Of a DNA stretch of 55,902 bases, positions 19,567-47,263 are shown in pieces. Origin of the DNA: a virus (taxonomy: Duplodnaviria > Caudoviricetes); the IMG/VR virus record IMGVR_UViG_3300017699_000061, positions 1 to 55,902 of that record. One strand, written 5' to 3'. The notes below the pieces were generated by a model. That model did no database searches. It saw nothing but the letters and a program-made list of their open reading frames with translations, and had not been told where the DNA came from. Every line of letters starts with the position of its first letter. Position 1 is the stretch's first letter. The translations under genes were made by a program, and so were the position numbers.

Positions 19567-21072
19567 TTAGAACCAGCTTCGAACAGGTCGACTCATGATC
19601 AGATCCGACATGTTCTTTTTGTTCCTGAGCACTTCCATAATGCGCTCATCCACAGTGTCAGGTGTCACTAGATCTATATAGGTCACAGGCTTGGTCTGTC
19701 CAATACGATGGTTACGATCTTCAGACTGCAACCTGTGTTCCAGATTGTAGCCGTTAGAGTAGTAGATAACCAGATTTGCCTCTGTCCACGTATTTCCAAA
19801 TCCCCCTGACTGAGGATTAGCCACCATAAACCGCGATTGGTTTTCTTGTACACAGGTTTCTTTGCCAACCACCTGATGATTTGCGTCTAAGGTTGGCCTC
19901 CAACCTTTGAACCGGAATACTCCGTCGTCTCTCTCGGTCCCGGTGATGGACCCATGATATTCAGAGACAGATCCCTTGCCGAATTTATCACGCAAGGCTC
20001 TCGCGACGTCGACCAGAGTCTGACGATACGTCGCCCAAATAATCACCTTCCCCTCGTAATCTTCGACAATATCCAAGAGAGTAGAGATGCGTTCGTTTTC
20101 AATGGACGCATATTCGTTGTCGCCAATCTTCAACTGGCCACAAACAATCTGATGTAGTTTAGTGATCTGGGACAGCACATTGATCACCTCAATCTCTGTG
20201 CCTTCCAACTCAAGTATAGCTTCATTCTTGAGTTGCGTGTACATCTGCTCCTGTTTAGGGGTTAACGGAACCACGCGTTGTGTATAGATCTTTGGTGGTA
20301 GATCCAGACACTGCTCTTTGAGAAGTTGATGCGAGAAGGACTTGACTGTCTCGGCCAATCTCTCTAGGTTTCTGTAGCCCACAACTCTCTGAAAGGTTCT
20401 AGCTCCTAAGTATTCGATCTCAATAACGCAGTAATTGTTGCGGAAGGCAAAATAACTGGTGAAACCAAGCAATCCCTTGCCAAGCACCATTGACTGTCCC
20501 CATAGATCCATGGGCGACTGGGTCACGGCTGTACCTGTCATGATCCTCTTGTAGGCACTTCTGAAGGCCCACACGTAGGTTTCTTTACTACGCTTGGAGT
20601 CATAGTGTTTCACGCAGGTCGACTCGTCAACTACAAGCATCACACGCTTGTGAGCTTTGTAGAATTGTTCGAGGACCTTGCTTCCACCAAAAGCCAACGA
20701 CTCGATATTAACGACCAGAATTGGCAGTCGATCACGGCCTGTACGGCACAACGACTTCATCGAATTCTTGAATGCTACGCTACTAGCTTTCAGCGAAGAG
20801 AACAGCACAGTCTCACGCTTGATCCTGTCAGGCAAGTGAGCTGGGATCTCGTAGCGAGTCCAGTTGGCGTATTCACCTTTCTTTGCTGTAATCACCACAG
20901 CATCGATCTGGTTTGTCTCAAATAGATATCCGAAAGTATTGATGGCGATCCATGACTTACCAAGACCCATCTCAATAAAGAAGGCCCAAGCTTTCTTGTC
21001 CTTGGTTTCTTCAAAGACTTTGAGCTGGTTTTCATAGAAGGGTTGAGTCTTGAATTCATACTGGAAGGTCAT
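19567..21072 (-). CDS. SNF2-family (SF2) DNA helicase/ATPase
   Basis: EMGLGKS (I), VVDES (II), MTGT (III), QSEDRNHRIGQ (VI). Confidence 0.92.
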   Translation of the reverse strand: MTFQYEFKTQPFYENQLKVFEETKDKKAWAFFIEMGLGKSWIAINTFGYLFETNQIDAVVITAKKGEYANWTRYEIPAHLPDRIKRETVLFSSLKASSVAFKNSMKSLCRTGRDRLPILVVNIESLAFGGSKVLEQFYKAHKRVMLVVDESTCVKHYDSKRSKETYVWAFRSAYKRIMTGTAVTQSPMDLWGQSMVLGKGLLGFTSYFAFRNNYCVIEIEYLGARTFQRVVGYRNLERLAETVKSFSHQLLKEQCLDLPPKIYTQRVVPLTPKQEQMYTQLKNEAILELEGTEIEVINVLSQITKLHQIVCGQLKIGDNEYASIENERISTLLDIVEDYEGKVIIWATYRQTLVDVARALRDKFGKGSVSEYHGSITGTERDDGVFRFKGWRPTLDANHQVVGKETCVQENQSRFMVANPQSGGFGNTWTEANLVIYYSNGYNLEHRLQSEDRNHRIGQTKPVTYIDLVTPDTVDERIMEVLRNKKNMSDLIMSRPVRSWF

Positions 21073-21233: not shown

Positions 21234-22085
21234 CTAGAAGGGGATGTCCTTATCCTGGTCGATGGCGCCACCACCATCACCGCCACCAGCACCAGACATG
21301 GCCGTGTCGCCAACCACAGGTTCCGCCGAGCGCTTGACGTCACCAGCTTCGATCAGCTGGTAGAACATCTTGGCCTGGTCATAGACCGCCTTGGACACGA
21401 TGTCTCTCTTCTCGATGCTGAGCTGCCACCAGGAATTGTTGGCCTTCTGTTCGAGAACCGTCCTGAGCTGGTAGGCATAGAGCCACCGAGGAGCGATGAT
21501 CTCTGTCCCAGGAATGCGGGTCGTCAGCAACTCATTGTTCCATCGACGATTGACCTTCAGACCGGTCGACTTGAGGGTCGTGACGCACTGTCCCCAGACT
21601 CCGGTCTCGGGATCCTTGTACAGGCCGTAGTGGTAGGCCGTCTCGATCAGCAGATTGCCATTCGGGAGAATGGGCTGCTTTCGATCGTTGGGCTTGGCTT
21701 CTTGACGAATATCCGAGGCGACCGGATATTCTGCGACCCATCCACCACCCTTGTCCCGGTCCACCCACTCGACGAGCTTGCGCTCATAAGCGCAGTTGAC
21801 GAAGATGAGGCCTTCCTTGCGACCCTCGTAGACGTCGAGAGAGACGTTGTTGAGGAACATGGAAGCCTGAGCACCTTCGATGAACTGAGGAGCGCCCGGA
21901 TTGACCTGAGGAGACAGACCCTGAAGGATGGCGATATACGGGAGAGCAACGTCTCCAGCATCCATGTCAGATACACCAGCACCAGCGTCACGCTGGAGGT
22001 CGGCAAGGTTCATGCCCTCAGGAAGCACGATCCCGGTATTCTCAGCCTTGGCGACTTCTGTCGAAGCCTTGGTAGCAGCAGCCAT
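21234..22085 (-). CDS. Phage ssDNA-binding/annealing protein (putative)
   Basis: PYIAILQGLSPQ motif; flexible acidic tail ending DKDIPF; replication module. Confidence 0.6.
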   Translation of the reverse strand: MAAATKASTEVAKAENTGIVLPEGMNLADLQRDAGAGVSDMDAGDVALPYIAILQGLSPQVNPGAPQFIEGAQASMFLNNVSLDVYEGRKEGLIFVNCAYERKLVEWVDRDKGGGWVAEYPVASDIRQEAKPNDRKQPILPNGNLLIETAYHYGLYKDPETGVWGQCVTTLKSTGLKVNRRWNNELLTTRIPGTEIIAPRWLYAYQLRTVLEQKANNSWWQLSIEKRDIVSKAVYDQAKMFYQLIEAGDVKRSAEPVVGDTAMSGAGGGDGGGAIDQDKDIPF

Positions 22086-22149
22086 TGAAGTTCTCCATTG
22101 ATTAGCCCCTTGTTGTTCGTGGCCAGAGGCATACCACCTTCGTTGGAGA

Positions 22150-22728
22150 TTAGACCTTCTTCTTCACTTTGGGAAGTGTGATCTTGGCCTTTTCGCCGAC
22201 AAATACCGTGAATAGATCAGGAAGCGGAGTGCCGGCTTCGATCTGTTCTTTCGCAAACGCCTTGAGTGTAGAGTGGTGGACAGACTCATCGAGAGCAACG
22301 TCGAAACCTTCGCTCTTCAGGTCTTCCATGAGTTCCTTTGCATCGGCTCGAGCCTCAGTGCCCTTGCCGAAGGGGATCACGACGTCGGTCTTGATGAGTG
22401 GTCCGTGGCCATTCTCTTCGAGCCAGGCATAAGCCAGCGGGCGGTTCTCGACCTTGATTGAGGCGCCGTAGAACTTCTCGACAGAGATGGATGCACCATC
22501 CTCAAGCTTGAAGCTTCGCATGCCAAGTTCGAGCATGGCATTGGGCAGGTCCATTTCAGAGATCTGCTTGAACTGAGCGTTCAGTTCCTTGAGCCTCTCT
22601 TCGACTTCTTCGATCTGACCTGCCAGCGACAATTGACGCATGGCCAGTGTCGAGATAGTCATCAAAGAAGCATCGGGGGCCTTGATTTCTGCTGAGTCTT
22701 TCAGCGCGGCGCTAAGAACGTCGTCCAT
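22150..22728 (-). CDS. Conserved phage replication-module protein
   Basis: LPNAM.ELG..SF.L.DG, AWLEENGHG.LIK and VHHSTLKAF..E pattern commonly found next to phage SSB genes. Confidence 0.6.
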   Translation of the reverse strand: MDDVLSAALKDSAEIKAPDASLMTISTLAMRQLSLAGQIEEVEERLKELNAQFKQISEMDLPNAMLELGMRSFKLEDGASISVEKFYGASIKVENRPLAYAWLEENGHGPLIKTDVVIPFGKGTEARADAKELMEDLKSEGFDVALDESVHHSTLKAFAKEQIEAGTPLPDLFTVFVGEKAKITLPKVKKKV

Positions 22729-22738
22729 GATATTCCTC

Positions 22739-23047
22739 TCAGTCTATGGAGATTTTGATGGGAAGATACTTACGCTCACGGCGCATCCATTTGAGCATAT
22801 TGACAGGCTCAGGATAGCAATTGTTAAAGACGATAGTTGTGGCAAGTCCAATGGCCACAGGATCTCCGGTCAAAAGGAGATAATCATCCACCTGAAAATT
22901 GATCAGAACTTCTCGGAGTTTTGAAACAGTAAACTCATACGAGAAATTGGCATCTCCCGGAGGGAGGATAGTCTTGACTCGGCCATATTCAAGGGCCGGG
23001 GCCAAATCATGGTTTGGCTGTTCTTGAACTACATAGACTATAGGCAC
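22739..23047 (-). CDS. Hypothetical conserved phage protein
   Basis: VYVVQE..A..YG..DYLLLTGDP pattern; SD GAGGAG; own promoter. Confidence 0.65.
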   Translation of the reverse strand: MPIVYVVQEQPNHDLAPALEYGRVKTILPPGDANFSYEFTVSKLREVLINFQVDDYLLLTGDPVAIGLATTIVFNNCYPEPVNMLKWMRRERKYLPIKISID

Positions 23048-23546: not shown

Positions 23547-23803
23547 CAGAAGAGACTCAGTTGAACAGGTCGTTGATGTTTCACTTTTGCCGGAGGTTTG
23601 GCTTTGACTTCTCGATGAAGACCTATGCCAAGTCTTGCTCTTTCAGACTCGCATTTTTGTAGATGTTCTTTTACCTTGCCTTCCTTGAATGCAAGAAGCG
23701 TGTCATACCCGCCTTGGCCTATTCTACCGTCTGCGTAATATATGTAGTAGAATTCAGCTCCGTTGGCCTTGACTATTTGAGCATCAGAATAGACCTGCGA
23801 CAT
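23546..23803 (-). CDS. Hypothetical protein
   Basis: 85-aa ORF coupled to neighbours; ends QLSLF (beta-clamp-binding-like). Confidence 0.55.
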   Translation of the reverse strand: MSQVYSDAQIVKANGAEFYYIYYADGRIGQGGYDTLLAFKEGKVKEHLQKCESERARLGIGLHREVKAKPPAKVKHQRPVQLSLF

Positions 23804-25814
23804 ATTCTTTCACCTCTCCCCAACTGTCTCCGACATCTGGTGATGCGTCAAACGGAATAGTCGTCTCGATAGCATGTTCCATGATCTCTTGCGTCCTGAT
23901 GAGTTCTCGGTCACTATTGACTGTGCGCCCTAGCTCATCGTAGACCTGTATCTGAGGTGTGAGGTTCTCTCCGTCAAGAATGATGATGCACTTCTTGATC
24001 TGATCTGCTGCGGATCCTTGAACCAGAGCATTCAATGCTTTATGGACCATGGCTCGCGCCACATTCTCAGCACCCCACTTATCACAGGCCTCTTCATACG
24101 AAGGAACGGGTTTATTCCAAATGAAGGCATTATCGTGTTTGTCGGGAGAATACGCCTTCTCCCACATATTGAAGCGTCGTTTACGCCCGAGAATGGTTTG
24201 GATCCATCCTCGCTTGTTGACCATTTCCATGCACTTCTCTTCAAGCTTCTTGACGTAGGGCACACCCTCGTGATAGGCTCGAAAGATCTCGTCTGCGACC
24301 TTACGTGGCAGGTTCAGCTTCTTGGCCAGTTTGGCCTTGCCCATACCATATGCAGATCCAAGGTTGATGTCCTTGGCGTTACGACGACCAATGTCCTTGC
24401 CTGACTTCTCTTTGACAAGATCAGCAGTCAGCTGGTGGTAGTCGGCTTTGGGGTTGTCAAGATAGACCTGACGTGCCTCGGCTGCTCCTTGAAGACCGAG
24501 GAGGAAGGCGTAATGAAGCAGGATCCTGGGCTCTTGTTGGCTGTAGTCCCATTTGCCCCACTTACCGCCATGGTCCGGGACGAACACGCCGCGGACCTTT
24601 TTGCCCCACAGAGGAGATCTGGTAGGAATGTTCGTGAGGTTGGGCTTTGATGAAGCAATGCGACCTGATCTCGTGCCCTTGCTCTTGCCACCGTCCTCTT
24701 CTTCATCCATAGCACGCAACTGATGCCAATTCGGATGAAGCCGTCCATTGACGTGCTTCTCGAGGATCATGCCCTCGATGAAGTCTGCACGTATCTTATG
24801 AAGTGTGCGCCACTCATTGAGTTGTTTGCAGAATTGGTCGTCTTGGGTTTCAAGCCAATCGCCGTTAACAGACAAGTTCAATTCACCTGTCTTCTTATTG
24901 ATTGTTCCAGTTGTGGGTAGCTCGAGTCCTCGCGCTTGTAGAACGGCGATCAGGTGCTTGCTTGAGCCGAGATTGATCCGATACCCTGCCATGTCAGCAA
25001 GAACATCGTAGATGTCGTCTTCGGCTTTACGCATCTCTTTGCTGAGGATCTCTGCTTTGTCGAGATCTACTCTAACACCATTAAGACGCATCTTGAATAG
25101 AATAGGTTGAAGCTGTTGCTCCAACAAAAAGATGTCCCAGACTTCATCAGCCTTTAAGGCTTGTTCTTGTTCAAGGAAGATGAGCACCGGGTTCTCAGCG
25201 TCATCTTCAGCATACTCGCCGACATATTCTGACGGCAGGAACTTCATATGCTTCTTGGGATCTGCCCCATAACAGGCAGCAGCTTCTCTAAGCTTTGCTT
25301 CATTCTTACCATAACCGAGGTAGTCTTTGGAGAGCACCTCAAGGCTGTAACCGTCGATCTTTTCTTCATTCAGAAGAGGTTCAGCGACCTGAATATCGCA
25401 AAGGTCGCCAAAGATCTTAATATCAATGGAGTTGAGAGCCTCCAATTCATAGGTTAGATTTGCGCCACACTTGGGTTGTCGGGCATCTTTCAGCTGATGC
25501 TTGACATATGATATCACCTGTGTCTTGTCAAGGTTTCCCTCGACATGGCCGAATGGCAAATAGATCTTGCGACCATTCTCGTCTGCAAGTGAAATGCCAA
25601 TGACCTCGGCGTCTCCACGAATAAAGCCCGGGCCCTGTTCTTGAAGGTTTGGGTCATTCGTCTCGACGTCAAGGCCAATGTATTCCGACTTAGAGAAGTC
25701 TGGCCATTTGGTTGAGTCTACAGGCACACTCCAAGTCTTATCAGGAGTGAACATAGGCAACTGGTTCACATCATGAATAGTCTTGGAGCCACGTCTTACC
25801 GGTTTTCTAGCCAT
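23784..25814 (-). CDS. polA: DNA polymerase family A with 3'-5' exonuclease
   Basis: DVET (ExoI), SGR.ASSKPNL.NIP, DYSQQEPR (A), R..AK..NLG..YG (B), NALVQGSAAD, QVYDE (C). Confidence 0.93.
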   Translation of the reverse strand: MARKPVRRGSKTIHDVNQLPMFTPDKTWSVPVDSTKWPDFSKSEYIGLDVETNDPNLQEQGPGFIRGDAEVIGISLADENGRKIYLPFGHVEGNLDKTQVISYVKHQLKDARQPKCGANLTYELEALNSIDIKIFGDLCDIQVAEPLLNEEKIDGYSLEVLSKDYLGYGKNEAKLREAAACYGADPKKHMKFLPSEYVGEYAEDDAENPVLIFLEQEQALKADEVWDIFLLEQQLQPILFKMRLNGVRVDLDKAEILSKEMRKAEDDIYDVLADMAGYRINLGSSKHLIAVLQARGLELPTTGTINKKTGELNLSVNGDWLETQDDQFCKQLNEWRTLHKIRADFIEGMILEKHVNGRLHPNWHQLRAMDEEEDGGKSKGTRSGRIASSKPNLTNIPTRSPLWGKKVRGVFVPDHGGKWGKWDYSQQEPRILLHYAFLLGLQGAAEARQVYLDNPKADYHQLTADLVKEKSGKDIGRRNAKDINLGSAYGMGKAKLAKKLNLPRKVADEIFRAYHEGVPYVKKLEEKCMEMVNKRGWIQTILGRKRRFNMWEKAYSPDKHDNAFIWNKPVPSYEEACDKWGAENVARAMVHKALNALVQGSAADQIKKCIIILDGENLTPQIQVYDELGRTVNSDRELIRTQEIMEHAIETTIPFDASPDVGDSWGEVKEYVAGLF

Positions 25815-26331
25815 TGATATGCAACCGCGCTCCCTGAGCAAGATTTGGCCTGTTGTCCCTGAGATGTTGCATAAGACTTGAGGCCAATGGAGACTCAAAC
25901 CTTGCCCAGCCTTTGGGTCCTCCTTCAGAATTGATCCACAGGTCTTTTACTTCGGGATGCGGATATTCTTCGAGAAACACAATACGCGTGCATCCAGTAT
26001 TGAGCAGTGATTTGACGCACTGCATACAAGGCGAAGACGTTGTGTAGCAGGTGTCGATTTCCTCGACATTGCGACATTGGATCAGCGCGTTCATCTCGGC
26101 ATGAGAAGCCAAGCATGCGTCTAATCCTGTCCCCGACGGAAGATCGGCCCCAGGGCATTTGTGATCGATGCAGTGTTGGATGCCTCTTGGCACGCCATTA
26201 CGACCAACGCCTATGACGTGGTTGAGACGATTTGTGAGGACGCAACCAACCATTCGCCTGAAGCAGGTTGACCCTGCTCCAGCGAGAATGGCCTGGCACA
26301 TGAAGATCTCGTCGTTAAACATGCGTTGCAA
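25807..26331 (-). CDS. dCMP deaminase
   Basis: STC..R.VG, HAE.NA and SPC..C zinc motifs; start re-called at TTG 26331 after SD GGAGG (alternative ATG 26322). Confidence 0.88.
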   Translation of the reverse strand: MQRMFNDEIFMCQAILAGAGSTCFRRMVGCVLTNRLNHVIGVGRNGVPRGIQHCIDHKCPGADLPSGTGLDACLASHAEMNALIQCRNVEEIDTCYTTSSPCMQCVKSLLNTGCTRIVFLEEYPHPEVKDLWINSEGGPKGWARFESPLASSLMQHLRDNRPNLAQGARLHING

Positions 26332-27118
26332 GACGAAAACCCTCCAGAATGCCGCCACCTTTGGCGTTGCCCCACAACCACTCAACTAGATCTTCGGGTC
26401 CCACGAACCAGTCCAGCGGATCAAATGGGCGATACACCTCGGGAAACACGTCATCGGACAGAATGACCTTGACCTTCTCGAGGTTCGACTCATACAGGTG
26501 CTGAGAACCTGCAGTCAGCGTGATATTGCCCAGCCTGACAGTCAGACCAAGCCTACGCAGGTAAAGGGCCAAATACCCAGACAGCATGGAAAAATTGAAG
26601 ATGTCATAGGGCCAGCCGAGATATGCATCGGAAGAACGCATGGTGTCGAAGCAGTACAGAACACCATCTCGGATGAGCCACTGAACGGAGATAGTGCATG
26701 GCACATCTTTGGTCTTGGGCGGATTTTCACGCCAGATATTGATGACAGCTTGACGACTACTTGGATCGTCAATCAAAGCTCTGGCAACGCCGGCAATCTG
26801 ATCGACGATCTTGGGCCCATAGGATCCGAAGAACCTGACTCCATCGTCGCTGAACTTGGAAATGTCCTTGCTGAACGGCGCGATGTCATCCACGCGATTG
26901 CTGCCCGAAAGGATCCAGGCGGCTTCTGCTGCCATGAACTTGTAGCCGACCTTGCGGAATGGCAGGGTCAGGATCGGATAGGCCATATTGACCTTGGACT
27001 GATAGCCCATCATCTCGAGACAGGGCAGTCCACGAGGGGAAGTCCTGTTTCCATATTTGACGATATCACTGGCAACAGACAGCCAGGCTTGGTTTGCGGT
27101 GTATGCTGGCTTAAACAC
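26315..27118 (-). CDS. Thymidylate-synthase homologue, predicted dCMP C5-modifying enzyme (methylase/hydroxymethylase/hydroxylase)
   Basis: AE..W, YG, SRQA, catalytic PC, MRSSD...GWPYD (Asp in place of ThyA Asn), HLY. Confidence 0.8.
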   Translation of the reverse strand: MFKPAYTANQAWLSVASDIVKYGNRTSPRGLPCLEMMGYQSKVNMAYPILTLPFRKVGYKFMAAEAAWILSGSNRVDDIAPFSKDISKFSDDGVRFFGSYGPKIVDQIAGVARALIDDPSSRQAVINIWRENPPKTKDVPCTISVQWLIRDGVLYCFDTMRSSDAYLGWPYDIFNFSMLSGYLALYLRRLGLTVRLGNITLTAGSQHLYESNLEKVKVILSDDVFPEVYRPFDPLDWFVGPEDLVEWLWGNAKGGGILEGFRLATHV

Positions 27119-28073
27119 TGATAAGTCCCTTCATGAATTCGAGATCAGTGAGATCGTTCGGGGCGAACCGACGATACCACTGCGGATGCTTTATCATAGC
27201 ATGTTCGATTGAACAACGACACAGCGCATTTGAAGCACTATGGCCAAGCGCGACAATATGAGTTGGTGCTGTTTCTTCGACGTAGTCATTGAGATCAGCG
27301 ACAACGCCATCAGCTTCACGGGAATTGACCCAGGCCAGCTTGTCCTCGTTGATGCCCAACTTCTGCAAGGCTTCAGTGATCCACAGCGAACTGTTGCCAT
27401 GTTCGAAAAACGGCCAGACATCTCGGCGAGTCTTCGGATTGCTTTGATCACCAACCAGAAGGATTTTCGGGCGATAGCTGTTACCAGCCACTAGCCGATT
27501 TTCTGGATCGAGCCATTCAGGTGCAACAATATCCTTGACAGACCATGCGTGATCAATAACCCACTTGCAATATTCGTCCAGGTGACGTCCATGGCTGTCG
27601 ATGTCGTAGTGAACGGCATCGAAGCGGGGTCCCATGGTGCGGTATAGATCGGCGTAGGCCTCATATACTCCCTGCATGGTGGAGAACATTTCATCACGAG
27701 ACTCCTTCAATTTGTCGAAGCGTTCGTAATAGGCTTTCTGATCACTCGGCACACAGAATACATATGTGACCCCATGCTTGAGAGCGACGCGATCCAACAG
27801 ACGCCCACCCAAGGGCCACTTACTCCCACCACGAAATACATCGGCATAGATCTTCTCCGAAGGCCACCAGCGATCAAGAATGACAGGCTTGTGCCTGGCA
27901 TATTTCAGACACAGCTCGATCGCAGCCGTGTGATAGTCGAACATACGGTCCTTGAACCGATACGTCAGATGGATGTATTTCGAGTCGCCGAGATACTCGG
28001 CCAACTTGTTGCAGAGCGTCGTTTTGCCTGATCCATCAGGACCTTCGATGACGAAGATAGGAAAATTGCTCAT
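27111..28073 (-). CDS. dNMP (thymidylate-type) kinase fused to a C-terminal uracil-DNA-glycosylase-like domain
   Basis: EGPDGSGKTT P-loop and LDR..SE..Y; C-terminal ILLVGD..N, PF, WVN, IVALG..A and HP motifs. Confidence 0.75.
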   Translation of the reverse strand: MSNFPIFVIEGPDGSGKTTLCNKLAEYLGDSKYIHLTYRFKDRMFDYHTAAIELCLKYARHKPVILDRWWPSEKIYADVFRGGSKWPLGGRLLDRVALKHGVTYVFCVPSDQKAYYERFDKLKESRDEMFSTMQGVYEAYADLYRTMGPRFDAVHYDIDSHGRHLDEYCKWVIDHAWSVKDIVAPEWLDPENRLVAGNSYRPKILLVGDQSNPKTRRDVWPFFEHGNSSLWITEALQKLGINEDKLAWVNSREADGVVADLNDYVEETAPTHIVALGHSASNALCRCSIEHAMIKHPQWYRRFAPNDLTDLEFMKGLISV

Positions 28074-28354
28074 CGTTTGATCCCGTATTCAACCTCAAGA
28101 AGAAGAGTATATTGCTCTTCCAGTTTGTCTCGAATTGATGGATCTGCCATCTGCATGACCTTGGCTGTCGCTCGGGCAAGTATGACCAATGCCGCCGTGT
28201 CGCACAACATAAAGGATCCAGCAAGTTTACCCAGATTGTTGGTTATGTCCCCAACACATTCTTGAATTACCTGTTCATATGTCTGGGTGTTGACCGATGA
28301 ACAGTGACAGACAAAGATAGAGTTCTCAGCTTTGATTGCTGTAGACATTGTCAT
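28070..28354 (-). CDS. Hypothetical protein in the modification operon
   Basis: 94-aa ORF, ATGA coupling to the kinase gene. Confidence 0.55.
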   Translation of the reverse strand: MTMSTAIKAENSIFVCHCSSVNTQTYEQVIQECVGDITNNLGKLAGSFMLCDTAALVILARATAKVMQMADPSIRDKLEEQYTLLLEVEYGIKR

Positions 28355-28787
28355 TCACCAGGTCGCTGTGATCGGGAGCAGTCCATCCTTCTGGCTTGAC
28401 CACATCGTAAGCCGATCCGCGCTTGCTGTCAGAAGCCCGTTCAGCTCGCACCTTGGCCATATTGGCCTTGTGAACACGGCGCCACGCCTCCTTGAAGTCG
28501 AAGCCATGGAGATAGGACGTGCCGAGGGCGACGTAAACCAGGTCGACAAAGGCGTCGAGCATCTCCTCGAGATGCTTGTTCACCTTCTCGTGGTTCAGTT
28601 TCTCGAGGCCCAGTTCGAACTGGAGACCGACGGCATTGTCTTCGTATTCGCGCAACTCCTCCTTCATGAAGTCACGGCGGAAGATGCTCATCTCTCGGTC
28701 TAGGCCTCGCGGCTTGCCGTCATAGGCAAGCCCGAACTTCTCGTGGAATTCCGCAATGTCGCGGACGGGATCAAAGTCTTCGCTCAT
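28326..28787 (-). CDS. MazG-like / PRA-PH-family dNTP pyrophosphohydrolase
   Basis: EFH..FG, EEL.E, E.LDA..D..YV, VH.ANM.K and KP.GW motifs; start re-called after SD AGGAG. Confidence 0.82.
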   Translation of the reverse strand: MSEDFDPVRDIAEFHEKFGLAYDGKPRGLDREMSIFRRDFMKEELREYEDNAVGLQFELGLEKLNHEKVNKHLEEMLDAFVDLVYVALGTSYLHGFDFKEAWRRVHKANMAKVRAERASDSKRGSAYDVVKPEGWTAPDHSDLVNDNVYSNQS

Positions 28788-28800
28788 GGTAATCTCCTGG

Positions 28801-29772
28801 TTAGATGATGCCGTTATTGTAACCCTTGTAGGAGTCCAATTCCTCCCACTTCTCGGAACTTGTCCAAGGCTTAGAAACCTCAGATAAGGGCTTGAATTTT
28901 CGAATGTAATTGGATCGAGCAATCTTCAAGATCCAGATGTTGTTCCGAGCGTAAGCCGGCATCAGAGGCGCGAAGATGGTCGCGAGGATGTTCGTATCGT
29001 AGTACTTATAGAGGCGCTCATACACCTCCTTGCTGCCCGGGATCTCCTTGAACATGACATCCCGGTAATCCCGAATGGAAGCGAACGTGCCGTAATTCTC
29101 GGCAATCTCATATCCCAAGTCCTCGATCAAAGCGCCCAATGCTTCACGCTTCATCTCGTTGACATGGTTGTCGGCGGCGCCAACGGACGAGTCATAGCAA
29201 GGCGTCGAGATGTAGGCGATAGGATCTTCATTGTGCTCGCGGTTTGTAGCAAGCATAATGGATCGCATCTTGGTCAACATGTGGCGAGCATGGCTCGGTT
29301 CTACATGCTCAAGGACTTCAAAACAGGTGATGATGTTGGGAAGATCGTGTTCGCCTTCCTCGACGTCACCGTCGACGTAGAGCACAGGCTTCACGGTGTC
29401 ATCGATGATCTCGGGCTTACGGACAAGCACCTGCTTGGAGGCGAAGTCCACAGAGCCATAGGCGGACAGTGGGAACTTGCCCTTGCTGAACATGTCCGTC
29501 TTGAACTTGGCCGACTTGTTGTAGTCCAGGCCGATGTAGTCGGCGACTATGAAGCGGTTCGAGTAGAGCATCTTGGCAAGTGGCATGTCGACGCCGCAGC
29601 CGATGTCGAGGACACGTGCAGTCTGATATCGACCACTTGTGCCCAATTTGCGGGCCACGTGGGTCCAACGGAAAACATGCGCGATATAGTCGCGATGGAT
29701 CATTATCCGTTCTTCTGCCGTATCAATCGACAGGTGTGTGTTGTCGATGCTCTTGCCTCGAACATTGGCCAT
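28801..29772 (-). CDS. Class I SAM-dependent methyltransferase (small-molecule type)
   Basis: VLDIGCG motif I, YIGLD, CFEVLEHV, ISTP; no DPPY/NPPF/PC DNA-MTase catalytic motif. Confidence 0.82.
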   Translation of the reverse strand: MANVRGKSIDNTHLSIDTAEERIMIHRDYIAHVFRWTHVARKLGTSGRYQTARVLDIGCGVDMPLAKMLYSNRFIVADYIGLDYNKSAKFKTDMFSKGKFPLSAYGSVDFASKQVLVRKPEIIDDTVKPVLYVDGDVEEGEHDLPNIITCFEVLEHVEPSHARHMLTKMRSIMLATNREHNEDPIAYISTPCYDSSVGAADNHVNEMKREALGALIEDLGYEIAENYGTFASIRDYRDVMFKEIPGSKEVYERLYKYYDTNILATIFAPLMPAYARNNIWILKIARSNYIRKFKPLSEVSKPWTSSEKWEELDSYKGYNNGII

Positions 29773-29814
29773 ACTCAGATCCTCAAATTGTGATGGGAAT
29801 TCGTTACAATTCCC

Positions 29815-29843
29815 ATAATAGAGGATTGTCGAGCTAAAGTAAA
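29815..29843 (-). promoter_or_regulatory. Promoter of the modification/PolA operon
   Basis: TTTACT-N17-TATTAT; overlapped by inverted repeat ATGGGAATT-N6-AATTCCCAT (29793-29816). Confidence 0.7.
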
Positions 29844-29867: not shown

Positions 29868-29896
29868 TAAAGAAAAAGGACGCCGAAGCGCCCTTC
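29868..29896 (-). terminator. Intrinsic terminator
   Basis: AAGGGCGC-TTCG-GCGTCCTT followed by TTCTTT. Confidence 0.8.
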
Positions 29897-31098: not shown

Positions 31099-31316
31099 GG
31101 TTAGATCCTCTGTGAGGGTGAGGCATAGCATTCAGTCGCCAGCGGCTATGCCTCAGATGAAGCTGGCTTATCGTAGGCCCATTAGTGGCGGCCCATTCTC
31201 AGCCTCCTTCGTTGTCCGACAGACACCCGTGTCGTCGGCGCAAGGCCCGGCCTACAGTTGGCTACGGGCTCGGCTCATGGAGGATCTCCGGCCCCGAAGG
31301 GCCGGAGTCTCTATTC
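31099..31316 (-). ncRNA. Structured intergenic RNA/leader with pseudoknot and tandem minigenes
   Basis: UUCG hairpin 31286-31307; GTAGGCC/GGCCTAC stem; 11-bp stem TGAGGCATAGC/GCTATGCCTCA whose loop GCTGGC can pair with upstream GCCAGC. Confidence 0.5.
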
Positions 31317-31910
31317 TCACTCTTCGTCGTCGGAGTCTTCGTCCTCGGACTCGTCCTCGACTTCGGCATCCTCATCGTCGGACTTGCCGACGGCATGGAT
31401 CAGGCCGAGAACTTCCAGAGCACGCCGATAGTAGGCGAAGAGCTGGTCATCCTCGATCTTGGAGGTGACGAACTTGAGGGCCTTCGCATAGCCGGCGATA
31501 TCGGAGCCGATCATGGCGTCGCGCGGCGAGATGATCTGAGCCGAAGCGAGATACTCGAGAAGGCCACGAACCTGCTTCGGGGCGGCGTTGAACGCCTCCT
31601 TGTATCCGTCCGTCCAGAGGGCGGGGTTGGCAACCGCCTTGTTCAGATAGTAGAACTTGTGCTTGAAGGGCTGATTGCCGGACAGGTTGTTGCCATGCCG
31701 GATGATCTTGCCCTCAGCGTCCCTGGCGCGCAGGGAGGGATACCGACGAACGACATTTTTGATGGCGTTCTTGTCGATGGTGGGGGTCTCGGCCTTGACC
31801 TGCATCTCGTAGACGCCGATGGCGCTCTCGAGCTGGTCCTTGGTCATCTCGTGGCGACCGGTGATGTTGTAGAGCTTGGCCTTGGCCAGCAGATCGGTCT
31901 TCGTGGTCAT
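31317..31910 (-). CDS. Rho-N-like HEH domain plus putative winged-helix domain, acidic tail (paralogue 2)
   Basis: TKTDL..KAK..NI.GR..M.K..L..AI (Rho_N pattern); PKQ...LL...TSK....LFAYY...L...GLI. Confidence 0.7.
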   Translation of the reverse strand: MTTKTDLLAKAKLYNITGRHEMTKDQLESAIGVYEMQVKAETPTIDKNAIKNVVRRYPSLRARDAEGKIIRHGNNLSGNQPFKHKFYYLNKAVANPALWTDGYKEAFNAAPKQVRGLLEYLASAQIISPRDAMIGSDIAGYAKALKFVTSKIEDDQLFAYYRRALEVLGLIHAVGKSDDEDAEVEDESEDEDSDDEE

Positions 31911-31959
31911 GATCGTCTCTCCGCTCTTGCGCCGCACGTTTTGTTCGACGCGATGATTA

Positions 31960-31988
31960 TTTATATGCCGCGCTACCGGGTATGTAAA
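31960..31988 (-). promoter_or_regulatory. Leftward promoter of the divergent region
   Basis: TTTACA-N17-TATAAA. Confidence 0.7.
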
Positions 31989-32085
31989 CAGCTATTTTGG
32001 CATTTTTCGAACTATTTTTGGCCGCCCATGGAGGGTATATAGAGAGCGGCGATTTCACAAAGAACACCAAGCCTGCAAATTGAAT

Positions 32086-32114
32086 TGTACATTACCCGTT
32101 AAGCGATATAATGT
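32086..32114 (+). promoter_or_regulatory. Rightward promoter of the divergent region
   Basis: TGTACA-N17-TAATGT (overlapping TATAAT). Confidence 0.7.
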
Positions 32115-32160
32115 CATAATTCGGACAAATGTCCGGTTGCATTTCAGAGCGGAGAATGTG

Positions 32161-32853
32161 ATGCACTCTTACGAAGAACGGCCCCCTGGTCAATGGGTTG
32201 TCGTGCTATTTCCCCAGACCAAATCCAAGGACTATTCGGATGTTCGGCTTTATCCATCGCTGGACGCGGCGGTTAATCGGTATGCCAAGGCAACCCGAAC
32301 CCTCCATGTTTACTCAAGTCCTGGAGAACTCGTCCACCGCCACGGGGGCCCAGTTCTACATAAGTTCCTCACCGACATTGGTGACCAATTTTCCGACGCT
32401 CGTAACCGATACCGCAAGTGTGAGATCGGTGACGCCGAGCTGAGTGTCGCCGAAATCCACTCAAGTGAGCGTGCTAAAGTCGCCGATGAGCTGTGGCGTA
32501 TCTGCCAACTGATCGGCGACAAGTGCACTGGACCTTCAGTCGGTGTTGATGACGACGACCATTTCAAGATCCGCATCGATCGGATGACGACGCCAGAGGG
32601 TCGCGAGACTTGGGGCAAGTTTCCCAAGCAGGCTCGACAGATTATCGAGGCGTTGATCGCAAATGCCAAGTCGATCATGCCAGAGTCTGAACTTCAGAAG
32701 CTGGTGTCTGGACTCGTTGCCAACCGCATCATGAAAACCAAGCAGGATCCATGGCGGATCTTCGCTTACTACGCCCCCATGTTCGGGGATGCTGGCCTGC
32801 TCTATTATCCGGGGAAGCGCCACAAACTAGAAGACCACGAAGAAAATATCTGA
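32161..32853 (+). CDS. Hypothetical protein with C-terminal putative winged-helix domain (paralogue 3)
   Basis: PKQARQII..L...KTKQDPWRIFAYY...F...GLL; SD GGAG. Confidence 0.7.
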   Translation: MHSYEERPPGQWVVVLFPQTKSKDYSDVRLYPSLDAAVNRYAKATRTLHVYSSPGELVHRHGGPVLHKFLTDIGDQFSDARNRYRKCEIGDAELSVAEIHSSERAKVADELWRICQLIGDKCTGPSVGVDDDDHFKIRIDRMTTPEGRETWGKFPKQARQIIEALIANAKSIMPESELQKLVSGLVANRIMKTKQDPWRIFAYYAPMFGDAGLLYYPGKRHKLEDHEENI

Positions 32854-32873
32854 GCTGCACGGCTCGAGGGTCT

Positions 32874-35180: not shown

Positions 35181-36014
35181 CTAAACTGATACTTGAGCTT
35201 TGATAGCTGGATGAGAGACGTAGTTGCTCAAGCTGATGTATTCAGCTTTCACATCCCAAACATCCTTGACAGTGTCGGCGCCGGAATGAAGATGAAGACT
35301 TGGAAATGGCAGTGGAGTACGCTCAAGTTGTTCAGCAGCAGCATCTAGGTGGTTGTTGTAAAGATGCAGATCACCGAAGGTGTGGACGAAGTCCCCAACC
35401 TCTAAATCGCAAACTGCTGCCATGAGATGTGTCAACAAGGCATAACTTGCAATGTTGAATGGCACACCGAGGAAGATATCGGCACTGCGTTGATAGAGTT
35501 GGCAGGACAGCTTGCCGTCCGCGACGAAGAACTGAAACAGGCAGTGGCACGGACTAAGAGCCATAGCCGGCAGGTCCACTGGGTTCCAAGCCGAGACGAC
35601 GATACGGCGCGAGTTCGGATCGTTGCGGATCAGGTGCTGGGCCTGCGCGATTTGGTCGATGTGGTTGCGTTCGCCCCACTGGTCGCGATGGAACCAGCTC
35701 CGCCACTGCGCACCATAGACTGGACCTAGATTGCCTTGCTTATCGGCCCATTCATCCCAGATGTGGACTCCCTGTTCTTGTAGTGATTTCACGTTGGTTT
35801 CGCCCCGCAGCATCCAGAGCAACTCAGCAACGACGCCCTTCCAGAACACCTTCTTGGTGGTCAGGAGCGGAAACCCCTGCTGGAGGTCGAAACGCATTTG
35901 AGCTCCGAAGATGCCTCGCGTCCCTGTGCCGGTGCGGTCCCCTCTCTCGGCGACATCCGTTCCATATCGTAACCGACGTAAAAGATCAAGATATTGATGT
36001 TCTGGGTGTCTCAT
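35181..36014 (-). CDS. thyA: Canonical thymidylate synthase
   Basis: [52 protein letters not shown]. Confidence 0.95.
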
Positions 36015-36983: not shown

Positions 36984-37301
36984 CTAGTCCACGCCCCATT
37001 GCTTGTATAGAGCTTGAAGGTTTTCGCCAGTCTTCTTCGCTTGTTCTCGGGCTGTGGCGCGAAGCCTATTGCGCTTGTTGTATGAGGCTTTTCTCTTGGG
37101 CCCCATGGCATGGTAATACTTGTTCATCCTCTTCGCTTTGCTCTTGCGATAGTTGATGACAATCTGCGGCGACACCACACTCTCGTATGTGGTGAAGCGC
37201 TTATTACAGACCATGCACTCACGGCGGCGTCTAAATACATTGTCGGGTGCCTGACGTGAGTCAAGCACCCGAGTCTCTTCATCACAGTGAACGCACTTCA
37301 C
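36984..37301 (-). CDS. NrdR-like zinc-ribbon protein lacking the ATP-cone
   Basis: C..C....V.DSR....RRRREC..C..RFTTYE. Confidence 0.8.
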
Positions 37302-38044
37302 TCAAGTGGATCCTTGTCTTCAGGTTCAGATGGAAACCCAAAGGCTTTCTCAGTAGCCTTTCGCCAGTATTCGCGGGCTTCCGTCCAATGACTTCCAGTC
37401 GTCGAGAAGTGGCCTTCCTCTTTCTCCATCCCCTGGAAGGGATTATCACCATGTAGACGAATAATCTTGTAGTGTATATCTGGATCAAGGGACTTTAAAG
37501 TCTCCATGACAGCAGCATGGTACCGCTTGTATGTGCTCTGAAGATACTGGCTGTAAGCAACTCGAGACGCTTCGCCTTCGAGAGTTACCAACGAACCTTG
37601 CAGGTTCCACAAATGCTGATCGTGGACCTGTTCCTTCACAGCGTGGAGGAATTTGATGCGATCTTGGATCTTGAAATCATCGCTGGCGTAGCGTCGCACC
37701 ATGCATTCCACGAACCGCTCTCGCACTTCTTCGTTGTACCACAGAGACTCGGCCAAAGCGGCAGGGTCAGCTCGCATGAGTATCTCGTCGAGCATGTCGA
37801 CGATTGGGATCACCAGCGCATTGTCGCGCACTTCTATGTTCGGGAAGCTGTCTCTTGGATTGGTGCTTCCGGAGGAATACACTCCGTAGTTGGCACGGGT
37901 GTCTTCAATCACCACAGGCACATCCTTGGGCACCCGGATAGACCTGTTGCCATACGTGCCATGGATAACGTAGACCGCTTCGCCGGTCTTGCCGTCAATG
38001 AAATTGGGCTCGGCTGGTTTCTTGGCAGTCAATTCGACGCTCAT
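37298..38044 (-). CDS. Hypothetical protein
   Basis: 248-aa ORF, SD AGGAG, coupled to neighbours. Confidence 0.7.
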
Positions 38045-47181: not shown

Positions 47182-47214
47182 TCTCAGTCTTTCTCTCTGG
47201 TATGCCGCTTGATT

Positions 47215-47243
47215 ATAGTAGCCTTAATTTGGCGCCTCGTACA
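47215..47243 (-). promoter_or_regulatory. Phage promoter
   Basis: TGTACG-N17-TACTAT (overlapping TATAAT). Confidence 0.7.
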
Positions 47244-47263
47244 CGTGAGAATGTGCCGAGTTA

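What the first reader, a model, noticed from the sequence alone, without database searches (positions are those of the whole stretch)
23784..29843. Candidate new cytosine-modification pathway: MTase, MazG, kinase::UDG, dCMP-type TS, dCMP deaminase and PolA in one operon
Seen: one promoter (29815-29843) precedes abutting or overlapping genes for a small-molecule-type SAM methyltransferase, a dNTP pyrophosphohydrolase, an unknown ORF, a dNMP kinase fused to a UDG-like domain, a TS homologue with Asp at the base-specificity site, a dCMP deaminase and PolA. A separate canonical thyA sits at 35181-36014. Established: T4 replaces C using dCTPase, dCMP hydroxymethylase and dNMP kinase, and Xanthomonas phage Xp12 fully replaces C with 5mC at the nucleotide level. 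Inference: this phage makes a C5-modified dCTP and incorporates it genome-wide. I see no glycosyl-, carbamoyl- or amino-acid transferase, so the SAM enzyme is the only obvious tailoring step, which could give an uncharacterised base such as O-methylated 5hmC or O-methylated 5-hydroxy-C. Common 6-bp restriction sites (GGATCC at 149, GAATTC at 1940, many GTCGAC and CTCGAG) are not obviously avoided, which is weakly consistent.
Basis: partly seen in the sequence, partly recalled or inferred. Interest (0 to 1): 0.88.

Follow-up and report, generated by a model that had tools for sequence, protein, structure and literature searches.

The report
Phage cytosine-replacement operon with orphan methyltransferase
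A phage operon that very probably swaps the cytosine in its DNA for a hydroxymethylated form also carries a phage-only methyltransferase that always travels with this pathway, so it may make a DNA base that nobody has described yet.

Summary
On the minus strand, 23784-29772 encodes a class I SAM methyltransferase, a MazG/PRA-PH pyrophosphohydrolase, a 94-aa orphan, a Tmk-like kinase fused to a UDG-fold domain, a thymidylate-synthase (TS) homologue, a dCMP deaminase and PolA. A canonical ThyA lies at 35181-36014.

The TS homologue has the T4 gp42 / MilA hydroxymethylase signature: D143, C146, T147, D169, D177. It does not have the Xp12 methylase signature (N143, P147), nor the D169N mark of 5-hydroxy-dCMP synthases.

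The methyltransferase belongs to a large family that is almost entirely viral. A TS-family gene was present in all 50 of 50 whole viral records carrying it. In the fetched loci, 80 of 81 TS-family ORFs have that signature; the one exception is a canonical ThyA. Some are 45-46% identical to T4 gp42.

The cultured relative AXL3 carries the same cassette. Its published DNA resists 35 of 37 restriction enzymes, and its base is unidentified.

I read this as T4-style nucleotide-level replacement of C by a 5hmC-derived base, with the methyltransferase as the likely tailoring step. Its substrate and product are untested; O-methyl-5hmC is a guess (about 0.3).

The scan's first stage noted the same cassette in another genome (e1-6260426).

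The parts
29815..29843 (-). sigma-70-like promoter match ahead of the methyltransferase gene
   Evidence: TTTACT-17-TATTAT, 9 of 12. Matches in the region are not above chance (5 found, 6.8 +/- 2.5 in shuffles). Position only; function inferred.
29875..29896 (-). terminator-like hairpin upstream of the promoter-like site; a likely operon boundary
   Evidence: 9-pair stem with 5 G-C pairs, a 4-nt loop and a T-rich tail.
28801..29772 (-). class I SAM-dependent methyltransferase (323 aa) of a family that is almost entirely viral; candidate tailoring enzyme
   Evidence: Pfam Methyltransf_23, 39.5 bits against cut-off 27. 1042 homologues at E<=1e-3. AlphaFold pLDDT 91.1. Nearest structures are ChlM Z 17.5, CmoM Z 16.9 and HEN1 Z 15.5, then a flat list near Z 15. 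pI is 5.0-6.6 in 58 of 58 members. Always found with an Asp-type TS homologue.
28326..28922 (-). MazG/PRA-PH-type nucleoside triphosphate pyrophosphohydrolase; inferred dCTPase
   Evidence: Pfam PRA-PH 4.6e-10; phrog_671 2.9e-24. Found next to the methyltransferase in 56 of 56 viral loci with at least 6 kb downstream. The longest ORF is 198 aa, whereas relatives have a median of 134 aa, so the true start is probably internal.
28070..28354 (-). 94-aa ORF of unknown function
   Evidence: No Pfam, PHROG or NCBIfam match. Similar ORFs occur only in the two nearest relatives, L004 and L005.
27525..28073 (-). N-terminal Tmk/YorR-like dNMP kinase domain of the fusion protein (residues 1 to about 183)
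   Evidence: phrog_761 thymidylate kinase 4e-16. VIA Z 15.0 to YorR-like 2axp and Z 14-14.6 to thymidylate kinases. The P-loop G11/D13/G16/K17/T19 and D67-R68 are invariant in 28 of 28.
27111..27524 (-). C-terminal UDG-superfamily-fold domain of the fusion protein (residues about 184-320)
   Evidence: VIA Z 12.4 (UdgX 6ail) and 12.3 (T. maritima UDG 1l9g), rmsd 2.9 A over 133 residues. Pfam UDG in 7 of 28 members. A profile-to-PDB alignment places G-[D/E], P-F and N under UdgX's GEQPG, PF and TNA, at the weak E-value of 0.15. Fused to the kinase in 36 of 56 full loci.
26315..27118 (-). TS homologue, predicted dCMP C5-hydroxymethylase (5hm-dCMP synthase)
   Evidence: Pfam PF00303 9.4e-23. The best solved relative is MilA CMP 5-hydroxymethylase at 1e-26, against 8.2e-17 for the best TS. 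Signature D143-C146-T147-D169-D177, identical to T4 gp42. It sits outside the ThyA+Xp12 clade in a quick tree.
25807..26385 (-). dCMP/dCTP-family zinc deaminase
   Evidence: Pfam dCMP_cyt_deam_1 1.7e-13; phrog_174 6.2e-27. Present in 53 of 56 full loci.
23784..25898 (-). family A DNA polymerase
   Evidence: Pfam DNA_pol_A 2.1e-55; phrog_17 7.5e-103. A similar PolA is present in 49 of 56 full loci.
35181..36014 (-). canonical thymidylate synthase ThyA (dUMP to dTMP), outside the operon
   Evidence: Pfam PF00303 8.7e-112. Signature L143-C146-H147-D169-N177.

Best explanation
This is a T4-style, nucleotide-level cytosine-replacement operon that carries one extra conserved enzyme.

Inferred pathway:
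1. The MazG-type enzyme hydrolyses dCTP to dCMP.
2. The TS homologue adds a C1 unit to C5 of dCMP and hydrates it, giving 5-hydroxymethyl-dCMP.
3. The Tmk-like kinase makes the diphosphate, and a host NDP kinase makes the triphosphate.
4. The operon's PolA incorporates it genome-wide.
5. The deaminase, together with the separate ThyA, keeps dTTP supplied.

The SAM methyltransferase at the head of the operon is a pathway member. It most probably alkylates the 5-hydroxymethyl group, so that virion DNA would carry an uncharacterised 5hmC derivative. 5-Methoxymethylcytosine is the simplest guess.

Shown here: gene identities, folds, active-site signatures and the gene linkage. Inferred: every enzymatic step, the substrate of the methyltransferase, and the role of the UDG-fold domain (possibly removal of uracil/hmU, or pyrimidine binding).

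My sub-odds:
- DNA carries C5-modified cytosine: 0.85.
- The TS product is 5hm-dCMP: 0.75.
- The methyltransferase acts in this pathway: 0.6.
- The final base is O-methyl-5hmC: 0.3.
For: (1) TS homologue.
- It carries D143, C146, T147, D169 and D177, exactly as T4 gp42 does. Xp12 and JWX read N-C-P-D-D, and the window's ThyA reads L-C-H-D-N.
- PMC13326640 (passages) states three rules: N177D gives dCMP preference; L143D/E is typical of T4-like 5hmdCMP synthases and of MilA; D169N marks 5-hydroxy-dCMP synthases.
- The best solved relative is MilA CMP 5-hydroxymethylase (1e-26, 96.9 bits); the best TS scores 8.2e-17, 64.4 bits.
- In a quick ML tree, ThyA, Xp12 and JWX form one clade (SH-aLRT 96) that excludes the window's enzyme.

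(2) Linkage of the methyltransferase.
- A TS-family ORF is present in 73 of the 83 loci fetched through it. The other 10 loci all end within about 1.9 kb of the methyltransferase gene.
- PF00303 was found in 50 of 50 whole viral records.
- 80 of 81 TS-family ORFs in methyltransferase loci have the D-C-T/S-D-D signature. The single exception is a canonical ThyA.
- The link survives rearrangement. In L017 and L049 the order is MazG-TS-methyltransferase-deaminase.
- The link spans three TS clades. In L017 and L078 the partner is 45-46% identical to T4 gp42.
- In a 305-kb contig the two genes lie 58 kb apart.
- Among 56 loci with at least 6 kb downstream: MazG 56, TS 56, deaminase 53, kinase 49, PolA 49.

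(3) The methyltransferase is absent, at tblastn E<=1e-5, from all but 5 of 50,697 phage records. That excludes Xp12, T4, JWX and HTVC200P.

(4) AXL3 has the same cassette. Its DNA was cut by only 2 of 37 enzymes, the two whose sites contain A/T alone, and its base is unidentified (PMC7504290, passages).

(5) Precedent: a 5hmC carbamoyltransferase co-occurs with TS, PRA-PH and dCMP deaminase only on cytosine-modified contigs (PMC8670742, section 10).

(6) No other candidate transferase was found. GT1, GT2 and Carbam_trans_C are absent from the window and from 5 relatives, 3 of them complete. Clustering ORFs from the 80 loci revealed no further conserved enzyme beside the cassette.

(7) Nature of the methyltransferase. 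It is a small-molecule-type class I enzyme whose nearest structures are O-methyltransferases: ChlM, CmoM and HEN1. Family pI is 5.0-6.6, which fits a soluble nucleotide enzyme better than a DNA-binding one. This is a weak inference.
Against: - There are no chemical data for this phage or for any relative.
- The structural neighbours of the methyltransferase form a flat, generic list (Z about 14-17.5; Foldseek TM below 0.5). Neither substrate nor atom methylated can be read from it.
- By pairwise BLAST the window's TS homologue scores higher against the Xp12 methylase (67 bits) than against T4 gp42 (32.7 bits).
- The signature rule rests on few characterised enzymes and has misled before. RB69 and DLP3 enzymes with N177D and L143E turned out to make 5-hydroxy-dCMP.
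- In the NEB preprint, 5 of 7 tested deaminase-linked Asp-type TS homologues made 5-methyl-dCMP, and their deaminases supply dTTP from 5mdCTP.
- Of 32 near-complete methyltransferase-bearing relatives, 31 have no ThyA or ThyX of their own. That arrangement also fits the Xp12 logic.
- The loci are related phages and include near-identical pairs, so the counts are not independent events, and part of the synteny is shared ancestry.
- The window is only 69% complete.
- At least seven ORFs of 150-309 aa have no family match. Another tailoring enzyme could hide among them.
- The tree is the quick version; the careful search did not finish.
Confidence: 0.6

Rival explanations
1. The operon makes a known base, plain 5hmC. 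The methyltransferase does something unrelated to DNA bases, such as methylating an RNA, a protein or a small molecule, or draining SAM as a counter-defence. It stays in the cassette only because it is an early gene of this phage lineage.
For: The structural neighbours include RNA and small-molecule methyltransferases with no clear best match. The family is acidic. The loci are related phages, so synteny may be inherited. PMC12783734 (passages) raises SAM consumption as a possible counter-defence for a different phage enzyme.
Against: The link to Asp-type TS homologues holds in 50 of 50 whole records. It holds across three TS clades, across different gene orders, and across a 58-kb separation on one contig. 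The methyltransferase overlaps or abuts TS and deaminase genes in L017. It is missing from Asp-type TS phages such as T4, Xp12 and HTVC200P, so it is not simply a lineage marker of all such phages.
Confidence: 0.2
2. An Xp12-like pathway. The TS homologue is a dCMP methylase that makes 5m-dCMP, the deaminase converts part of the 5mdCTP pool into dTTP, and the genome carries 5mC. The methyltransferase is then either irrelevant or adds a second mark.
For: The same TS + deaminase + PRA-PH + PolA neighbourhood was found for contigs whose TS made 5mdCMP, in 5 of 7 tested. 31 of 32 near-complete relatives lack their own dTMP synthase. The window's TS homologue scores higher against Xp12 TS than against T4 gp42 in BLAST. 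AXL3's restriction pattern does not separate 5mC from 5hmC derivatives.
Against: Signature D143/T147 matches T4 gp42, not N143/P147 of Xp12 and JWX. Xp12 and JWX group with ThyA, apart from the window's clade. The best solved relative is a hydroxymethylase. This phage and its nearest relative keep a canonical ThyA, which would be redundant. Xp12 has a DHFR beside its TS, but none was found here or in 5 relatives. Xp12-type cassettes lack this methyltransferase.
Confidence: 0.1
3. The methyltransferase-fold enzyme is in the pathway but does not O-methylate. It either methylates another atom (N4 or N3 of the modified cytosine nucleotide) or transfers a different SAM-derived group (carboxymethyl or aminocarboxypropyl). 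The result is a different new base.
For: Class I folds carry out such chemistries. CmoA-type enzymes appear among the neighbours at Z 15.1, and phages are known to reuse CmoA/Cx-SAM chemistry for DNA (PMC12783734, passages). Nothing in the data fixes the acceptor atom.
Against: No NCBIfam or Pfam match to CmoA, CmoB or DNA amino-methyltransferase families at E<=0.01. The exclusive pairing with hydroxymethylase-signature TS homologues points to the hydroxyl as the feature that matters.
Confidence: 0.1

Closest known systems
T-even phage 5hmC pathway: gp56 dCTPase, gp42 dCMP hydroxymethylase, gp1 dNMP kinase, cd deaminase, td TS, then glucosyltransferases
   Same: The same logic and the same enzyme classes: pyrophosphohydrolase, Asp177/Asp143 TS homologue, dNMP kinase, dCMP deaminase and a separate TS. 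The TS signature is identical to gp42. Some methyltransferase-linked TS homologues are 45-46% identical to gp42.
   Different: The window's TS homologue is only distantly related to gp42 (27.9% over 104 residues). The dCTPase is MazG-type, and the kinase is Tmk/YorR-type fused to a UDG fold. No glycosyltransferase was found. A SAM methyltransferase stands where a tailoring enzyme would be expected.
5hmC carbamoyltransferase cassettes of cytosine-modified metavirome contigs (MetaGPA, PMC8670742)
   Same: A tailoring enzyme co-occurs with TS, PRA-PH and dCMP deaminase on contigs with modified cytosine (section 10). It is the closest functional analogy for a group transfer onto 5hmC.
   Different: No carbamoyltransferase domain is present here. 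The candidate tailoring enzyme is a Methyltransf_23 protein, and its activity is untested.
Xp12 / PaMx74 5-methylcytosine pathway with 5mC-selective deaminases (bioRxiv 10.1101/2024.12.05.627091)
   Same: An Asp177 TS homologue next to a deaminase, with a pyrophosphohydrolase or HAD hydrolase and a PolA nearby.
   Different: Xp12 and JWX TS read N143/P147 and group with ThyA. Xp12 has DHFR beside its TS and no such methyltransferase.
RB69 / DLP3 5-hydroxycytosine arabinosylation clusters (PMC13326640)
   Same: A TS homologue with N177D and an acidic residue at 143, whose best PDB match is MilA. A Tmk/YorR-like 'nucleotide kinase' sits in the cluster.
   Different: Those enzymes carry D169N, whereas Asp169 is kept here and in all 80 methyltransferase-linked homologues. 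Their tailoring enzymes are arabinosyltransferases.
UDG-PolA fusions of phages with T-modified genomes (phiLo; PMC13697223, search listing and start of abstract only)
   Same: A UDG-fold domain is fused to a replication or nucleotide enzyme of a phage with modified DNA. The phiLo polymerase's UDG part matches the window's domain at Z 10.6.
   Different: Here the domain is fused to a dNMP kinase rather than to the polymerase. It is short (about 135 aa) and its activity is unknown.
ChlM, CmoM and HEN1 O-methyltransferases (nearest solved structures)
   Same: The class I fold of the small-molecule/RNA type. CmoM methylates a substituent on C5 of a pyrimidine in tRNA (function as stated in PMC12783734).
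   Different: Sequence identity is 15-20% and Z is only 1-2 above a flat background. No family membership can be claimed.

Membership tests
TS-family dCMP hydroxymethylase (T4 gp42 / MilA type) | Thymidylat_synt fold with the catalytic Cys146 | tested here: met
   PF00303 9.4e-23; the Cys aligns with ThyA C146.
TS-family dCMP hydroxymethylase (T4 gp42 / MilA type) | Asp at the N177 position (cytosine specificity) | tested here: met
   the rule is from PMC8670742 section 11 and PMC13326640.
TS-family dCMP hydroxymethylase (T4 gp42 / MilA type) | Acidic residue at the L143 position (lets water reach the methylene intermediate) | tested here: met
   D143, as in T4 gp42; the rule is from PMC13326640.
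TS-family dCMP hydroxymethylase (T4 gp42 / MilA type) | Formation of 5hm-dCMP from dCMP and methylene-THF | not testable with these tools
   Needs an enzyme assay or in vivo reconstitution.
5-hydroxy-dCMP synthase (RB69 gp48 type) | Asn at the D169 position (D169N) | tested here: not met
   Asp169 is kept in the window's enzyme and in all 80 methyltransferase-linked homologues.
Xp12-type dCMP methylase (5m-dCMP synthase) | Groups with Xp12/PaMx74-type enzymes and shares their active-site residues at positions 143 and 147 | tested here: not met
   Xp12 and JWX read N143/P147 and group with ThyA, apart from the window's clade. There are only two reference sequences and the tree is the quick version.
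Class I SAM-dependent methyltransferase (Methyltransf_23) | Pfam match above the gathering score, and a Rossmann-like fold with glycine-rich motif I | tested here: met
   39.5 bits against cut-off 27. D56-x-G58-C59-G60 is invariant in 58 of 58. Fold matches at Z up to 17.5.
DNA base methyltransferases (amino- or C5-type) | Match to DNA methyltransferase families or motifs | tested here: inconclusive
   No such Pfam or NCBIfam family at E<=0.01, and none among the 50 best VIA rows. The motif comparison (no DPPY-like motif after strand 4) was made by eye from a recalled motif.
UDG superfamily (family 4 / UdgX-like) | UDG fold | tested here: met
   Z 12.3-12.4, rmsd 2.9 A over 133 residues. Pfam UDG in 7 of 28 family members.
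UDG superfamily (family 4 / UdgX-like) | Motif A (G-E-x-P-G), the stacking Phe, the base-reading Asn and motif B (H-P) | tested here: inconclusive
   G-[D/E]-x-x-N-P-K, W-P-F, an invariant Asn and an invariant H-P occupy the matching places. The profile alignment is weak (E 0.15), and the motif definitions are recalled.
UDG superfamily (family 4 / UdgX-like) | Glycosylase activity | not testable with these tools
   Needs an assay.
Thymidylate/dNMP kinase | P-loop kinase fold of the Tmk type | tested here: met
   phrog_761 4e-16; Z 14-15 to Tmk/YorR. The Pfam and NCBIfam Tmk matches are below their cut-offs.
MazG/PRA-PH NTP pyrophosphohydrolase | Pfam match above the gathering score | tested here: met
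   40.2 bits against cut-off 21.3. Substrate not tested.
MetaGPA 5hmC carbamoyltransferase system | Carbamoyltransferase N and C domains | tested here: not met
   PF16861 is absent from the window and from 5 relatives. The N-domain was not searched.

The most novel reading that the evidence does not exclude
A large, mostly uncultured group of environmental phages, which includes the cultured Stenotrophomonas phage AXL3 and Pseudoxanthomonas phage PW916, replaces cytosine genome-wide with a base not yet described. The base would be 5hmC alkylated by a phage-specific SAM enzyme; the simplest form is 5-methoxymethylcytosine. It would be made by a compact cassette of methyltransferase, MazG, kinase::UDG, gp42/MilA-type hydroxymethylase and deaminase.
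Probability: 0.3. Interest if true: 0.85.

Novelty: new variant of a known kind. Interest (0 to 1): 0.72.

Why it matters
Replacement of cytosine at the nucleotide level is known, with 5hmC, 5mC and 5hoC as the starting bases. Known tailoring steps are sugars and a carbamoyl group. A methyl ether, or another SAM-derived alkyl group, on 5hmC would be a new natural DNA base.

The enzyme family is large: 1042 homologues were found, almost all viral. Many environmental phage genomes would therefore carry the base. That would affect how they are sequenced, how they evade restriction and type IV nucleases, and which enzymes can be mined for 5hmC detection chemistry.

The prediction can be tested directly, because two cultured phages carry the cassette and one already has unexplained restriction-resistant DNA. 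The kinase::UDG fusion is a second feature without a known role.

Tried and rejected
- Near-identity DNA search of the operon against 50,697 phage records: no match.
- Sequence search of the methyltransferase against the PDB: only E of about 0.3 to leucine carboxyl methyltransferases. Rejected as uninformative.
- NCBIfam: nothing above any cut-off for any of the seven proteins.
- Foldseek of the methyltransferase model: generic class I hits with TM below 0.5.
- Atlas look-up: only viral 'methyltransferase' clusters without a function.
- Complex prediction with two copies of the TS homologue plus the methyltransferase: 'no answer', score 0.00. This is neither support nor evidence against binding.
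- Earlier-findings look-up: one first-reader note on a related genome, with no checks attached.
- CmoA-like Cx-SAM synthase: considered, then set aside for lack of any family match.
- DNA amino-methyltransferase: considered. The S-T-P-C-[YW] stretch follows strand 5, not strand 4, in the model, so it is not a DPPY-type motif IV. This was a by-eye judgement using a recalled motif.
- 'Separate ThyA implies hydroxymethylase', considered as a general argument and rejected as general. Only 1 of 50 relatives has a second TS-family gene and 3 of 50 have ThyX. A complete gp42-type relative (the L017 record) also has none.
- Restriction-site avoidance: none overall. This is uninformative either way.

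Literature. No paper in the held library joins 'methoxymethyl' with phage and hydroxymethylcytosine (0 papers). With deoxycytidine there were 9 papers, all of them irrelevant. Searches found no description of this methyltransferase. Supplements are closed and figures are not held, so I could not see the MetaGPA list of 110 associated Pfam domains. It may already include Methyltransf_23. Subscription-only papers are not covered.

Not done: sequencing-run search and read laying; the 1.84-billion-protein profile search; the careful version of the tree.

Full report
WHAT IS THERE

The held record equals the window: 55,902 bp, an IMG/VR viral fragment estimated at 69% complete. On the minus strand, seven ORFs abut or overlap between 29772 and 23784. 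Pfam and PHROGs identify them as follows:
- a Methyltransf_23 class I SAM methyltransferase (28801-29772);
- a PRA-PH/MazG pyrophosphohydrolase (28326-28922);
- an orphan of 94 aa (28070-28354);
- a protein with a thymidylate-kinase-like N-terminus (27111-28073);
- a thymidylate-synthase (TS) homologue (26315-27118);
- a dCMP-type deaminase (25807-26385);
- a family A DNA polymerase (23784-25898).

A canonical ThyA (8.7e-112) lies at 35181-36014, next to a DnaQ-like exonuclease. A terminator-like hairpin lies just upstream.

THE KINASE::UDG FUSION

An alignment of 28 relatives gave an AlphaFold model with mean pLDDT 92.6. An exhaustive structural comparison splits the model in two:
- Residues 1-186 match YorR-like and thymidylate kinases at Z 14-15.
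- Residues 184-320 match UdgX and family-4 uracil-DNA glycosylases at Z 12.3-12.4, rmsd 2.9 A over 133 residues.
- The UDG part of the phiLo phage polymerase also matches, at Z 10.6.

At the sequence level the window's own domain hits nothing, but 7 of 28 family members hit Pfam UDG. A weak profile alignment to UdgX (E 0.15) places the family's G-[D/E], P-F and Asn under UdgX's GEQPG, PF and TNA. An invariant His-Pro sits near the C-terminus.

Whether the pocket is catalytic is open.

THE TS HOMOLOGUE

Its best solved relative is MilA, a CMP 5-hydroxymethylase, at 1e-26. Real TSs begin at 8.2e-17.

I aligned it with the window's ThyA, T4 gp42, Xp12 TS and others. At E. coli positions 143/146/147/169/177 the residues are:
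- window homologue: D-C-T-D-D;
- T4 gp42: D-C-T-D-D;
- Xp12 and JWX: N-C-P-D-D;
- window ThyA: L-C-H-D-N.

Published rules support reading this as a dCMP hydroxymethylase:
- N177D switches the enzyme to dCMP, and positions 177 and 147 are the two most discriminating positions in cytosine-modified metaviromes (PMC8670742, section 11).
- An acidic residue at 143 is typical of T4-like 5hmdCMP synthases and of MilA (PMC13326640, passages).
- D169N marks the recently found 5-hydroxy-dCMP synthases (same paper, same calls).

A quick ML tree puts ThyA, Xp12 and JWX in one clade (SH-aLRT 96) and the window's enzyme in a separate clade of 60 that includes AXL3 and pelagiphage HTVC200P.

Three points count against this reading. 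BLAST scores the enzyme higher against Xp12 TS than against gp42. The signature rules rest on few enzymes. And RB69's enzyme defied an earlier signature-based expectation.

THE METHYLTRANSFERASE AND ITS COMPANY

It has 1042 homologues at E<=1e-3. The nearest Atlas clusters are almost all viral. Among 185,579 species genomes only 15 loci matched, all on MAG contigs and most of phage size.

I fetched 80 viral loci through it and three GenBank loci. The cassette methyltransferase-MazG-kinase(+/-UDG)-TS-deaminase-PolA recurs down to 29% methyltransferase identity. Among 56 viral loci with at least 6 kb downstream:
- MazG 56;
- TS 56;
- deaminase 53;
- kinase 49;
- PolA 49;
- kinase::UDG fusion 36.

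A TS-family ORF is present in 73 of 83 loci. The other ten loci all end shortly after the methyltransferase gene. In whole-record searches, 50 of 50 methyltransferase-bearing viral records have PF00303.

All 80 methyltransferase-linked TS ORFs read D-C-T/S-D-D. The 81st TS-family ORF is a canonical ThyA.

The link survives several changes:
- Gene order: L017 and L049 read MazG-TS-methyltransferase-deaminase.
- TS clade: L017 and L078 carry enzymes 45-46% identical to T4 gp42.
- Distance: the two genes lie 58 kb apart on a 305-kb contig.

Conversely, only 5 of 50,697 phage records hold the methyltransferase. Xp12, JWX, T4 and HTVC200P lack it.

These counts come from related phages, some nearly identical, so they are not independent events.

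WHAT THE METHYLTRANSFERASE LOOKS LIKE

The model is confident (pLDDT 91.1). Its neighbours are generic. ChlM (Z 17.5), CmoM (16.9) and HEN1 (15.5) lead a flat list near Z 15 of small-molecule, cap and tRNA methyltransferases. Foldseek TM scores stay below 0.5. No DNA-methyltransferase family matches. The family is acidic, with pI 5.0-6.6 in 58 of 58 members. Nothing fixes the substrate.

OTHER TAILORING ENZYMES

GT1, GT2, carbamoyltransferase C-domain and DHFR models find nothing in the window or in five relatives, three of them complete.

Clustering the ORFs of the 80 loci shows no further conserved enzyme beside the cassette. The next most common families are DUF932 (50 loci) and Pam3 gp32-34-like replication-module proteins.

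Seven window ORFs of 150-309 aa remain without any family.

OUTSIDE EVIDENCE

- AXL3 carries the cassette (gp31-gp27). Its DNA was cut by only TasI and Tru1I of 37 enzymes, and the authors left the modification unidentified (PMC7504290, passages).
- PW916 has the same genes, and its paper reports no DNA chemistry (PMC9414467, passages).
- The neighbourhood TS + PRA-PH + deaminase + PolA is already reported as typical of cytosine-modified metavirome contigs. In that work 5 of 7 tested TSs made 5mdCMP and the deaminases were 5mC-selective (bioRxiv 10.1101/2024.12.05.627091, passages).
- A 5hmC carbamoyltransferase shares such cassettes (PMC8670742, section 10).
- I found no paper describing this methyltransferase or a methoxymethyl-cytosine. 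Supplements and figures were not visible.

READING

The most likely reading is a T4-type nucleotide-level replacement of C by 5hmC, with the methyltransferase as the conserved tailoring step acting on the hydroxymethyl group.

The known-base alternatives stay open: plain 5hmC with an unrelated methyltransferase, or an Xp12-like 5mC pathway. Two observations keep them open. Of 32 near-complete relatives, 31 lack their own dTMP synthase. And characterised deaminase-linked enzymes were mostly methylases.

Overall this is a new variant of a known kind of system. It is directly testable in AXL3 or PW916.

Noticed in passing
window 1-55902: The record is an IMG/VR linear fragment estimated at 69% complete. 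Its nearest relative (the record behind L004, methyltransferase 92% identical) is 63,909 bp with direct terminal repeats and is scored 100% complete.
   Followed up: partly
records behind L004-L083 (50 searched): 31 of 32 near-complete methyltransferase-bearing relatives have no ThyA or ThyX of their own, although 53 of 56 full loci carry the deaminase. The source of their dTTP is unexplained: host TS, or deamination of a modified nucleotide.
   Followed up: partly
window 27111-27524 and loci L004-L083: The UDG-fold domain is fused to the kinase in 36 of 56 full loci. Other relatives have a kinase of 178-203 aa alone, or a roughly 300-aa form whose C-terminus does not match. The domain is only about 135 aa, against roughly 190-230 aa for the solved UDGs that it matched.
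   Followed up: partly
L014:6730-7716 and 49 other loci: A DUF932 (TIGR03299-like) gene of about 328 aa lies just upstream of the methyltransferase in 50 of the 80 viral loci. No counterpart was recognised in the window.
   Followed up: partly
window 21234-23047: Three consecutive genes downstream of PolA match Pam3 gp34-, gp33- and gp32-like families. An SNF2-type helicase follows at 19567-21072. The same trio follows PolA in many relatives.
   Followed up: partly
L092 / L103 (305,838-bp MAG contig): A contig binned as a Methylococcaceae MAG has dense, small, co-oriented ORFs around the methyltransferase and a gp42-like TS homologue 58 kb away. It looks like a very large phage genome that was binned with a bacterium.
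   Followed up: partly
L088-L102: All 15 genome-collection loci that matched the methyltransferase lie on MAG contigs, many of them 30-52 kb, assigned to unrelated phyla (Saccharibacteria, Dehalococcoidia, Acidobacteria and others). They are probably viral contigs inside bins.
   Followed up: no
window 31185-32042, 32080-32853, 37298-38044, 43270-43809, 44024-44953, 46756-47319, 48599-49348: ORFs of 179-309 aa with no Pfam or PHROG family at E<=1e-3.
   Followed up: partly
window, whole: GTAC (0.55) and CTAG (0.63) are the most under-represented 4-bp palindromes by a Markov expectation. CCTAGG and ATTAAT are absent. GATC is slightly over-represented (1.18).
   Followed up: no
window 32751-35126: A 791-aa protein with DUF5906 and DUF6371 matches, probably a primase-helicase, is transcribed divergently from the operon.
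   Followed up: no
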